From: Escherichia coli O157:H7
GTDB taxonomy: Bacteria > Pseudomonadota > Gammaproteobacteria > Enterobacterales > Enterobacteriaceae
DNA length: 64,000 nucleotides
Direction: 5' to 3' (one strand)
Assembly (NCBI RefSeq): GCF_013167455.1
Contig: NZ_CP038328.1
Made by a program: the position numbers. Position 1 is the stretch's first letter, and each line of letters opens with the position of its first letter. Below, one piece after another: positions 16,202 through 19,200 of this stretch.

Positions 16202-19200
16202 TGATATTCCGTTGATCGGCACATGAACCACAACGCCGGATGCGATGCTGCGCATCCGGCATCGCATCATTTCTTCTTCAATTGCGTCACCACCAACTGG
16301 TGGCGCGAATTATAAAACTTACGATAGGTTAAATAGCAGGCAATTATGGTCGACAAGCTGGCGGTTGAGAGCAGCATAAAGGTCACCATAATCTGATATT
16401 TAATCGCCTTCACCGGATCAATCCCGGCAAATATCAGCCCGGACATCATTCCTGGTAAACTCACTAAGCCAACCGTTTTTGCTGAATCGACCGTCGGAAT
16501 TAAAGCCACGCGAATACTGTCGCGAATCAATATCGCTGAAGCCTGCTTCGGCGTCGCGCCAAGACTCAGTTTCTCCTGAATCTGTTGCTGTTCGCTAATG
16601 ACCCGTTGCCCTAAATTGTTGTAACACAACCCCACCGCTACCATGGCGTTACCGGCAATCATCCCGGCGATAGGGATCACCTGCATCGGGATAAATTCAA
16701 TCGACCCTGAGAGAATCAGCACCGCCAGGGTAATTCCCGCCCCGACCGTAATGGCAATAAACGATGAGATAAAAGCTTTAGCAATATATTTACTGCGTTT
16801 TTGCGCGTTCCACGCCGCATTAAAGCAGATAAATAACACCATCAATAATGTCAGGCTGGCATCATCCACGCTGAAAATATACTTCAGCACATAGCCAACA
16901 ATAATCAGCTGAATTATCGCGCGCCCGACGCTCCAGAGAATATCTTTCTCCAGCGCCAGTTTTTCTTTATGGCTAATTAAGATTGCCACCACTACCAGCA
17001 TTAATGCCAGTGCTAATGATTCGTTAGTAATATTATGCGAGTTCATAGCGTGCTTCCTGCATTTCTCCGGCATGCGGTTGCAGTGTAATCACTTTATCCG
17101 CATGATTAATTTCGTCTTTATCGTGTGTCACCCACAGCACGGCAATATTTTGCTCGCGCACATAACGATGGATCATCTCATTAACGTTATGTTTATTACT
17201 TTCATCCAGCGCACTGGTGATTTCATCCAGCAATAAAACCTTCGGCATAAATTGCAGGTTACGAATCAATGAGATGCGTTGTTTTTCACCACCAGATAGC
17301 TCGGCGATATTCTTCGTCAAAATGCTGTCCGGCAAGGCGAAGCGTTCAAGAAAATCGAGAAAAATGGCCGGGTCAGGCTGCTGGTTACGGATCTGCCAGG
17401 GAAAGATCAGATTATCGTATACCGTATCGCCAAACAGCGTCGGCGTCTGGGCGCAGTAAGAGACTTGCTGACGGTAGATTTCTGGCTTTAGTGTGCTGAC
17501 ATCCTCACCTTCAAACAGTAACGTTCCGCTGGTTGGGCTGATCAATGAAGCAACTATTTTTAGCAGCGTACTTTTGCCACAACCAGAAGGACCGGTAATT
17601 AACTTAAATTCGCCAGCACGCAGCGAAAAATTGATGTTATTAAGAATCTTCGCATCACCCGCCAGATATCCTACGTTTTGTAGCTGAAGCAAAGGACTAT
17701 TTTCCTGCATCGCTGTTCCCTTTTTCTGATTTTTACTAAAAACAGTTTATCCTTCGCAGGAATAAGGGGGAACTCTCTTTCAGTAATCAGGTATAATTTG
17801 TTTAATCAAGCAGCAATTTTGCTGATTATGGACGGTACAACAGGAGGTTTTTCCGATGCTTATCTTTATCCCGATTCTCATTTTTGTCGCGCTGGTCATT
17901 GTCGGCGCGGGCGTCAAAATCGTGCCGCAGGGCTATCAATGGACGGTAGAACGTTTTGGTCGCTATACCAAAACGTTACAGCCGGGGCTCAGTCTGGTGG
18001 TGCCGTTTATGGATCGCATTGGTCGCAAGATCAATATGATGGAGCAAGTGCTCGATATCCCTTCCCAGGAAGTTATCTCGAAAGATAACGCCAACGTTAC
18101 CATCGACGCAGTCTGTTTTATTCAGGTGATTGACGCGCCACGCGCGGCTTATGAAGTCAGCAATCTGGAGCTGGCGATCATCAACCTGACCATGACTAAC
18201 ATCCGTACCGTGTTGGGTTCAATGGAACTTGACGAAATGCTCTCTCAGCGCGACAGCATCAACTCACGCCTGCTGCGTATTGTCGATGAGGCCACCAACC
18301 CGTGGGGGATTAAAGTCACCCGTATTGAAATTCGCGACGTGCGCCCACCGGCAGAGCTTATCTCTTCAATGAACGCGCAGATGAAAGCGGAACGTACCAA
18401 ACGCGCTTACATTCTTGAAGCGGAAGGGATCCGTCAGGCGGAAATCCTCAAAGCCGAAGGTGAAAAACAGTCGCAAATCCTGAAAGCGGAAGGCGAACGT
18501 CAGTCGGCGTTTTTACAGGCTGAAGCGCGTGAACGTTCCGCTGAAGCAGAAGCCCGCGCCACCAAAATGGTGTCTGAAGCCATCGCCTCCGGTGATATTC
18601 AGGCGGTGAACTACTTCGTAGCGCAGAAATACACCGAAGCGTTACAGCAGATCGGTTCCTCCAGTAACAGCAAAGTAGTGATGATGCCATTAGAGGCCAG
18701 CAGCCTGATGGGGTCGATTGCCGGGATTGCCGAGCTGGTGAAAGACAGCGCCAACAAGCGGACTCAGCCATGATGGAGTTAATAGTCGTTCATCCACATA
18801 TTTTCTGGCTCAGTCTCGGCGGTTTGCTGCTGGCAGCCGAGATGCTGGGCGGAAATGGTTATTTGTTGTGGAGTGGCGTGGCAGCAGTGATTACTGGCCT
18901 GGTGGTCTGGCTGGTGCCGCTGGGTTGGGAGTGGCAAGGGGTGATGTTTGCCGTCCTGACGCTGCTCGCCGCCTGGCTGTGGTGGAAATGGTTGTCGCGG
19001 CGGGTGCGCGAACAAAAGCACAGCGACAGTCATTTAAACCAGCGCGGGCAGCAGCTGATTGGCCGACGTTTTGTGCTGGAATCTCCGCTGGTCAACGGGC
19101 GCGGTCATATGCGCGTCGGTGACAGTTCATGGCCTGTCAGCGCCAGCGAGGATCTCGGCGCAGGTACGCATGTTGAAGTCATTGCGATAGAAGGGATAAC

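What the first reader, a model, noticed from the sequence alone, without database searches (positions are those of the whole stretch)
17033..17046. fetA/fetB junction: start-codon ambiguity and coding overlap
The longest fetB ORF starts at 17073 (268 aa) and overlaps fetA by 41 nt. The Met at 17046 gives the K-12-like length with a 14-nt overlap. Either way the two genes are translationally linked.
Basis: inference. Interest (0 to 1): 0.15.

Follow-up and report, generated by a model that had tools for sequence, protein, structure and literature searches.

The report
Ordinary fetA–fetB overlapping gene junction
The two genes of the E. coli FetAB iron-export pump overlap by 14 bases, the second gene starts at the already-annotated ATG rather than the upstream one, and this arrangement is conserved, catalogued in the literature and unremarkable.

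Summary
On the minus strand fetA ends with TAA at 17035-17033. The longest fetB ORF starts at ATG 17073 (268 aa, 41-nt overlap), and a second in-frame ATG at 17046 gives 259 aa with a 14-nt overlap.

The ambiguity is only formal, and the evidence points to 17046:
- RefSeq annotation and the NCBIfam FetB model both begin there.
- All 80 Enterobacterales junctions examined have ATG or GTG at that position.
- A conserved Shine-Dalgarno block (AGGAAG, 17058-17053) lies 6-7 nt upstream.
- Between-species variation upstream of 17046 follows the fetA reading frame, not the fetB frame.

The ATG at 17073 is a by-product of the FetA His-Ala codons (CAT GCC). It occurs in only 16 of the 80 junctions, has no Shine-Dalgarno sequence, and sits in a hairpin arm.

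The fetA stop codon lies inside the conserved FetB His4-Asn5 codons (CAT AAY). This keeps the overlap at 14 nt, or 8 nt where an earlier TGA has arisen.

Translational coupling is plausible but untested. Published spacing data suggest it would be weaker at -14 than at -4 and absent at -41, so "either way coupled" overstates the case. Huber et al. 2023 already list fetA/fetB at -14. The finding is ordinary and already known.

The parts
17033..17710 (-). fetA (ybbL) CDS, ABC-transporter ATP-binding subunit, 225 aa; stop TAA at 17035-17033
   Evidence: ORF list. NCBIfam NF007601 FetA scores 347 bits against a cutoff of 292. The RefSeq annotation in the identical strain FRIK1989 and in K-12 agrees.
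16267..17046 (-). fetB (ybbM) CDS, permease subunit, 259 aa, starting at ATG 17046-17044
   Evidence: TIGR00245 FetB scores 474 bits against a cutoff of 410, and model position 1 aligns to residue 10 of the long ORF. The product is 258/259 identical to K-12 FetB from this Met. All 80 junctions have ATG or GTG at the aligned position.
17033..17046 (-). 14-nt coding overlap ATGAACTCGCATAA. fetB codons 1-5 (M N S H N) are read one base out of phase with the last fetA codons (..Y E L A stop). The fetA TAA is formed by fetB His4-Asn5 (CAT AAT).
   Evidence: Direct reading. The overlap is 14 nt in 55 and 8 nt in 23 of 80 junctions. The CATAA columns are nearly invariant, with entropy 0.00-0.64 bits.
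17053..17058 (-). Shine-Dalgarno-like AGGAAG for fetB, encoded by FetA codons Gln-Glu (CAG GAA), 6 nt before the ATG
   Evidence: Anti-SD duplex is -4.3 kcal/mol with 7-nt spacing. Columns -13..-8 have mean entropy 0.52 bits against 1.63 in the spacer, and this includes a fetA third-codon position. Most other genera have CAGGAGG at -10.3 kcal/mol.
17071..17073 (-). Upstream in-frame ATG (start of the 268-aa ORF); judged not to be a functional start
   Evidence: It is formed by the FetA codons CAT GCC (His-Ala). It is reachable in only 16 of 80 junctions, and 6 junctions have an in-frame stop within 27 nt upstream of the aligned start. It has no SD (+0.2 kcal/mol), and its opening energy is 14.4 kcal/mol against a background of 10.0 +/- 3.3.
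17071..17104 (-). Predicted local mRNA hairpin (CAUGCGG ... CCGCAUG) whose 3' arm contains the 17073 AUG
   Evidence: Seen in both the MFE and centroid structures. The 120-nt fold as a whole is not better than shuffles (z = -0.65), so this is weak supporting evidence only.

Best explanation
This is the internal junction of the two-gene fetAB (ybbL-ybbM) operon, which encodes an ABC-type exporter implicated in iron efflux and peroxide resistance. FetB translation starts at ATG 17046, giving the 259-aa protein. The start is directed by a Shine-Dalgarno element (AGGAAG, 17058-17053) that is embedded in the last codons of fetA. fetA terminates 11 nt further on, at a TAA created by the conserved FetB His4-Asn5 codons, so the genes share 14 nt. 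The ATG at 17073 is an incidental product of the FetA His-Ala codons and is not used. These points are shown by sequence and comparison. The next step is inferred. Ribosomes finishing fetA cover and unfold the fetB start region and release within reach of it, so some FetB synthesis is probably coupled to FetA synthesis, either by termination-reinitiation with a short backward shift assisted by the SD or by facilitated de novo initiation. This would help balance the two subunits. I put the start assignment at about 0.95 and the existence of meaningful coupling at about 0.55.
For: The coordinates and both overlaps were verified. RefSeq annotates fetB as 259 aa with a 14-nt overlap, both in a strain identical to the window and in K-12. 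The FetB equivalog model starts at residue 10 of the long ORF. Annotated homologs in Citrobacter, Salmonella, Klebsiella, Enterobacter, Serratia, Providencia and others are 257-260 aa and align from this Met. More distant homologs (31-54% identity) are mostly about 250-270 aa, and the match begins within about 15 residues of both N-termini. In 80 Enterobacterales junctions the aligned start is ATG (63) or GTG (17), with no exceptions. Upstream of it, variation peaks at fetB-frame position 2, which is fetA position 3 (1.71 vs 1.18 and 1.17 bits). Downstream the normal coding pattern appears (0.66, 0.20, 1.21). The SD block is conserved (0.52 bits vs 1.63 in the spacer). Among 23 related junction haplotypes, codon differences from the window are 30 synonymous and 41 non-synonymous in the fetA frame, against 15 and 62 in the extension frame. 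In the three variant E. coli genomes fetched from the about 1180 that differ in the 85-nt junction, all carry GCC>GCT at 17069, which is silent in fetA and Pro>Leu in the putative extension. The SD energy and accessibility favour 17046 (-4.3 kcal/mol, opening 5.5) over 17073 (+0.2, opening 14.4). Short fetA-fetB overlaps recur in distant relatives, with called overlaps of 14, 8, 4 and 1 nt. In a published survey of 170 FetA@FetB pairs the median spacing is -4 with quartiles -8.9 and -3.7, and E. coli fetA/fetB is listed at -14 as a complex-forming pair.
Against: I found no direct experimental evidence for the FetB N-terminus or its initiation site. No fetB entry was found in the held supplements of the N-terminomics and riboproteogenomics papers searched, and the Ribo-RET preprint has no supplementary files held as text. 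The E. coli SD is weak (-4.3 kcal/mol). On coupling: -14 lies outside the -8..+6 range regarded as efficient for termination-reinitiation, and reporter series show coupling falling with increasing overlap. The 17046 start region is predicted to be relatively accessible in naked mRNA, so an 'unfolding' dependence on fetA translation is not indicated. Providencia has the genes separated by 9 nt, so overlap is not obligatory for this pump.
Confidence: 0.88

Rival explanations
1. fetB is translated independently of fetA by ordinary SD-directed de novo initiation at 17046. The 14-nt overlap is a neutral consequence of genome compaction plus the conserved FetB N-terminus (CAT AAY happens to supply the fetA stop) and has no regulatory role.
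For: A conserved SD lies at an ideal distance. The start region is predicted to be accessible without fetA translation (opening energy 5.5 kcal/mol vs background 10.0). Coupling efficiency falls with overlap length in reporter studies. Overlap length drifts among relatives (14, 8, 4, 1 nt, and a 9-nt spacer in Providencia) without loss of the gene pair.
Against: Short overlaps are strongly enriched for FetA@FetB pairs across 170 genomes (median -4) and for genes encoding subunits of one complex. 78 of 80 Enterobacterales junctions keep a 14- or 8-nt overlap and only one has a spacer. A ribosome terminating at 17035-17033 physically covers the fetB start, so the two events cannot be fully independent (inference).
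Confidence: 0.35
2. FetB starts at ATG 17073, so the 268-aa ORF with a 41-nt overlap is the real gene and the annotation is nine codons too short.
For: It is the longest ORF. The ATG is present in all four other Escherichia loci examined and in several Citrobacter.
Against: The ATG is absent in 64 of 80 junctions, and 6 junctions have an in-frame stop within 27 nt upstream of the aligned start. The extension frame shows a non-coding variation pattern, most variable at its codon position 2. There is no SD (+0.2 kcal/mol) and the codon is buried in a hairpin. The family HMM and the annotated homologs aligned start at the downstream Met, apart from one Enterobacter record with an over-extended N-terminus. 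The E. coli polymorphism found in the sampled variants changes Pro to Leu in the extension but is silent in fetA.
Confidence: 0.02
3. Dual initiation: in Escherichia and some Citrobacter both ATGs are used, giving a minor N-terminally extended FetB proteoform (MPEKCRKHA-) alongside the 259-aa form.
For: Both ATGs are in frame with no intervening stop in 16 of 80 junctions. Alternative in-frame starts are known in E. coli (abstract of 10.1101/520783).
Against: The arguments against the 17073 start apply here too: no SD, occlusion by structure, and no purifying selection on the nine extra codons. In addition, fetA-translating ribosomes continuously traverse this site.
Confidence: 0.04

Closest known systems
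E. coli K-12 fetA (b0490) / fetB (b0491), FetAB (YbbL-YbbM) putative iron exporter
   Same: It is the same locus. The junction DNA is 100% identical over 137 nt and differs from K-12 at one base in the 151 nt aligned. FetB is 258/259 identical. Gene order is the same: cueR-ybbJ-qmcA / fetA-fetB / cnoX-ybbO. The 14-nt overlap is annotated in RefSeq and listed as spacing -14, 'CMPLX yes', in Huber et al. 2023, Table S.
   Different: Nothing relevant to the junction. The window matches the bovine isolate FRIK1989 (100% over 1601 nt) and has one FetB substitution (V189 in long-ORF numbering vs A in K-12).
Short co-directional gene overlaps used for translational coupling by termination-reinitiation (-4 ATGA, -1 TAATG/TGATG, -8 NTGNNTGA classes; Huber et al. 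2019/2023, Brown and Wade 2025)
   Same: The genes are co-directional and encode two subunits of one complex. The stop of the upstream gene lies a few nt from the start of the downstream gene. The overlap falls in the same frame class as -8.
   Different: The overlap here is 14 nt, longer than the enriched classes, and an SD is retained. Coupling has not been measured for this pair and is expected to be weaker than at -4.
Over-long ORF / start-codon mis-assignment at overlapping gene junctions
   Same: The longest-ORF rule would give a 41-nt overlap that vanishes on comparative analysis. One RefSeq Enterobacter FetB record (P0029, 277 aa) shows exactly this kind of over-extension where the true start is GTG.
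   Different: In this window and in E. coli RefSeq records the start is already correctly assigned.

Membership tests
FetB permease (NCBIfam TIGR00245 / Pfam PF03649 UPF0014) | Full-length match to the equivalog HMM above its curated cutoff | tested here: met
   474.2 bits against a cutoff of 410. Profile positions 1-251 of 251 match residues 10-260 of the 268-aa ORF. Homologs carry PF03649.
FetB permease (NCBIfam TIGR00245 / Pfam PF03649 UPF0014) | Encoded immediately downstream of its cognate ABC ATPase FetA | tested here: met
   NF007601 FetA scores 347 bits against a cutoff of 292 for the upstream ORF. The same pairing is seen in 80 Enterobacterales loci and in distant relatives L083-L086.
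FetB permease (NCBIfam TIGR00245 / Pfam PF03649 UPF0014) | Iron export / peroxide-resistance activity | not testable with these tools
   Known only from overexpression phenotypes. PMC4902296, citing Nicolaou et al. 2013, notes that no transport assay has been shown.
Translationally coupled overlapping gene pair (termination-reinitiation) | Co-directional genes with the stop and start within the efficient range (about -8 to +6 nt) | tested here: not met
   The spacing is -14 in this window and in 55 of 80 relatives. 23 of 80 relatives are at -8 and 1 is at -4.
Translationally coupled overlapping gene pair (termination-reinitiation) | The products are subunits of one heteromeric complex | tested here: met
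   The two products are the ATPase and the permease of one ABC transporter. The pair is flagged 'CMPLX yes' in the Huber et al. 2023 supplement.
Translationally coupled overlapping gene pair (termination-reinitiation) | Downstream translation depends on upstream translation reaching the junction | not testable with these tools
   This needs reporter fusions with premature stops in fetA. I found no published test for this pair.
Alternative in-frame start / N-terminal proteoform | The upstream start codon is conserved and the extra codons are under coding selection | tested here: not met
   The ATG is reachable in 16 of 80 junctions. The extension frame is most variable at its codon position 2. 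Codon differences are 15 synonymous and 62 non-synonymous, against 30 and 41 in the fetA frame.
Alternative in-frame start / N-terminal proteoform | A ribosome-binding site and an accessible start region | tested here: not met
   The anti-SD duplex is +0.2 kcal/mol and the opening energy is 14.4 kcal/mol. The AUG is paired in a hairpin.
Alternative in-frame start / N-terminal proteoform | An initiation-site profiling peak or an N-terminal peptide | not testable with these tools
   No fetB entry was found in the supplementary data held.

The most novel reading that the evidence does not exclude
The -14 overlap may be a selected coupling device rather than a passive by-product. The fetA stop is locked inside the conserved FetB His4-Asn5 codons, and the SD is locked inside the FetA Gln-Glu codons, with a synonymous site held fixed. 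A terminating ribosome would then have to shift back 11 nt, guided by the SD, to reinitiate, which would set FetA:FetB stoichiometry. Escherichia and some Citrobacter might additionally make a minor 268-aa FetB from the 17073 ATG. Either would make this a natural test case for backward reinitiation at an overlap longer than the canonical -4/-8.
Probability: 0.06. Interest if true: 0.25.

Novelty: already known. Interest (0 to 1): 0.06.

Why it matters
It matters little. The analysis confirms that the existing annotation (259-aa FetB, 14-nt overlap) is right and that the longest-ORF reading is an artefact. It also shows how an SD and a stop codon can be embedded in a neighbouring gene's codons. 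The only open question is whether, and how strongly, FetB synthesis is coupled to FetA synthesis at a -14 overlap. That is a routine reporter experiment of interest mainly to people studying the distance rules of translational coupling.

Tried and rejected
1. I looked for direct experimental start-site evidence. The Ribo-RET preprint has no supplements held. The TRAINSPOTTER N-terminomics paper and the Salmonella riboproteogenomics paper have no fetB or ybbM entry in their supplements. A full-text search combining fetB with retapamulin, Onc112, N-terminomics or coupling listed no paper that mentions fetB. The original FetAB paper (PMC3837747) and an id recalled for Li et al. 2014 (PMC4006352) are not held.

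2. I looked for a solved structure that would define the FetB N-terminus and found none by sequence.

3. I tested for a significant RNA structure at the junction that could impose coupling by occlusion. The 120-nt fold is no better than shuffles (z = -0.65), and the true start is predicted to be accessible, so that model was rejected as unsupported.

4. There is no Rfam family in 15000-19000. Promoter-like and terminator-like hits across the fetAB region are no more frequent than in shuffled sequence.

5. I rejected it as not independent, because the junction DNA is identical and includes the upstream ATG.

Full report
**What is there.** The finding lies on the minus strand.
- fetA runs 17710..17033 (225 aa, ending ...ARYELA, stop TAA at 17035-17033).
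- The longest fetB-frame ORF begins at ATG 17073 and ends at 16267 (268 aa, MPEKCRKHAMNSHNITNE...).
- A second in-frame ATG lies at 17046-17044 (259 aa).
- The upstream ORF matches the FetA equivalog model (NF007601, 347 bits, cutoff 292), and the downstream ORF matches the FetB model (TIGR00245, 474 bits, cutoff 410).
- The 1.6-kb region is 100% identical to E. coli FRIK1989 and about 99% identical to K-12, and it is present once in 5416 of 5426 complete E. coli genomes.

**Which start is used.** RefSeq annotates fetB as 780 nt (259 aa) overlapping fetA by 14 nt, both in the identical strain and in K-12. K-12 FetB aligns from residue 10 of the long ORF with 258/259 identity. The K-12 junction DNA is identical and includes the upstream ATG, so K-12 shares the ambiguity and cannot settle it.

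The independent evidence is comparative. I retrieved 80 loci from distinct Enterobacterales species; one is cut short at the junction, and the 79 others were anchored, together with the window, on the conserved FetB N-terminus.
- In all 80 junctions (79 genomes plus the window), the position aligned with 17046 is a start codon: ATG in 63 and GTG in 17.
- The ATG 27 nt upstream is reachable in only 16, namely the Escherichia loci, some Citrobacter and two others.
- Six junctions have an in-frame stop within 27 nt upstream of the aligned start, and about 36 have no upstream in-frame start codon at all before the next in-frame stop.

The upstream ATG is simply the overlap of the FetA codons CAT (His) and GCC (Ala).

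Column entropy shows where fetB coding begins.

| Region (relative to the start) | fetB-frame pos 1 | pos 2 | pos 3 |
|---|---|---|---|
| Upstream, -48..-15 | 1.18 | 1.71 | 1.17 |
| Downstream, +15..+87 | 0.66 | 0.20 | 1.21 |

Upstream, variation peaks at fetB-frame position 2, which is fetA position 3. Downstream, the normal coding pattern for fetB appears.

Further points agree:
- Among 23 related junction haplotypes, codon differences from the window are 30 synonymous and 41 non-synonymous in the fetA frame, but 15 and 62 in the extension frame.
- Within E. coli, 4237 of 5418 genomes are identical over the 85-nt junction. The three variant genomes I fetched all carry GCC>GCT at 17069, which is silent in fetA and Pro>Leu in the putative extension.
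- Distant FetB homologs (31-54% identity) are mostly about 250-270 aa, and the match begins within about 15 residues of both N-termini.

**Initiation signals.** AGGAAG at 17058-17053 lies 6 nt before ATG 17046. It pairs with the anti-SD at -4.3 kcal/mol with 7-nt spacing. The 17073 ATG has nothing comparable (+0.2 kcal/mol).

Across species the block at -13..-8 is conserved (mean 0.52 bits), while the spacer just after it is not (1.63 bits). The conserved block includes the third base of the FetA Gln codon. Most genera carry the stronger CAGGAGG at -10.3 kcal/mol. The SD is therefore under nucleotide-level selection inside fetA.

Predicted opening energy of the -18..+13 region is 5.5 kcal/mol for 17046 and 14.4 for 17073, against a local background of 10.0 +/- 3.3. 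The 17073 AUG sits in the 3' arm of a hairpin (CAUGCGG...CCGCAUG, 17104-17071), although the region as a whole does not fold better than shuffles (z = -0.65).

**Anatomy of the overlap.** The fetA TAA is made by fetB codons His4-Asn5 (CAT AAT), and the CATAA columns are almost invariant.

| Spacing of fetA stop and fetB start | Junctions (of 80) | Notes |
|---|---|---|
| 14-nt overlap | 55 | As in the window |
| 8-nt overlap | 23 | An earlier stop, usually TGA (ATG AAT GA / GTG GGT GA); in the Enterobacter- and Citrobacter-type junctions the old TAA stays in frame one codon later |
| 4-nt overlap (ATGA) | 1 | Edaphovirga |
| 9-nt spacer | 1 | Providencia |

Distant relatives have called overlaps of 14, 8, 4 and 1 nt.

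The literature already covers this. In the Huber et al. 2023 supplement, E. coli fetA/fetB is listed with spacing -14 and flagged as a complex. Across 170 FetA@FetB pairs the median spacing is -4, with quartiles -8.9 and -3.7.

**How it probably works.**

*Shown:* fetB starts at 17046, with an SD inside fetA and a 14-nt overlap that is conserved.

*Inferred:* a ribosome terminating at 17035-17033 covers the fetB start and SD. After release it, or its 30S subunit, can reposition 11 nt upstream on the SD-marked AUG (termination-reinitiation). Alternatively, its passage simply keeps the site open for de novo initiation.

There are reasons for caution:
- The efficient range for reinitiation is about -8 to +6.
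- Reporter series show coupling falling from -4 to -25 and absent at -25.
- The start site is predicted to be accessible without help.

I therefore rate real coupling at about 0.55 and regard independent SD-driven initiation as a serious rival.

**Comparison and novelty.** This is the known fetAB (ybbL-ybbM) locus. Its function is inferred from overexpression phenotypes, namely lower cellular iron and peroxide resistance, with no transport assay. The overlap, the start and the gene pair's classification as overlapping complex subunits are all already annotated or published. No direct start-site data for fetB turned up, and no solved structure was found by sequence.

**Verdict.** Interest is 0.06.

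Noticed in passing
window 15314-16204 (+): cnoX (ybbN) has the same kind of start ambiguity. The longest ORF starts at ATG 15314 (296 aa, [17 protein letters not shown]...), whereas RefSeq annotates 284 aa starting at 15350 ([11 protein letters not shown]...).
   Followed up: no
window 16239-16278 (+): There is a 12-bp GC-rich, REP-like hairpin (GATGCGATGCTGCGCATCCGGCATCGCATC) between the convergent genes cnoX and fetB. Its last bases overlap the fetB stop codon, and the T-run that follows it on the + strand is the complement of the FetB C-terminal Lys-Lys-Lys codons. The cnoX terminator tail is thus encoded inside fetB.
   Followed up: partly
window 18770-18773 (+): The neighbouring pair qmcA-ybbJ has the canonical 4-nt overlap. 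This follows from the RefSeq coordinates mapped to the window, and the pair is listed at -4 in the Huber et al. 2023 supplement.
   Followed up: no
P0029 (Enterobacter cloacae complex, nr record, 277 aa); loci L025, L037, L038, L045-L049, L059: In Enterobacter the conserved fetB start is GTG. At least one public 'MULTISPECIES' FetB record is extended by 17 residues to an upstream ATG (MTSSRSCRRAEKCRRLAVGEHNITNE...), which is probably an over-long start call.
   Followed up: partly
P0004 (442 aa), P0095 (415 aa, labelled Astraeus odoratus, a fungus): These database proteins carry both ABC_tran and UPF0014 domains at 87-94% identity to E. coli FetB. They look like FetA-FetB fusions, as a 1-nt indel or sequencing error in the overlap would create. 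The fungal label suggests bacterial contamination of that assembly.
   Followed up: no
L085:1201-2761: A distant relative (44% identity) has two tandem UPF0014 (FetB-like) permease genes after one ATPase gene. The called overlaps are 1 nt and 8 nt, suggesting a heterodimeric permease variant of the system.
   Followed up: no
loci with the 8-nt overlap, e.g. L025, L038, L007 (positions +6..+14 from the fetB start): Where fetA ends at the earlier TGA, the ancestral TAA within CAT AAY remains in the fetA frame one codon later (TGA GCA TAA), giving a tandem stop. The T of the FetB His4 codon (CAT) is nearly invariant (0.20 bits) even in these species.
   Followed up: partly
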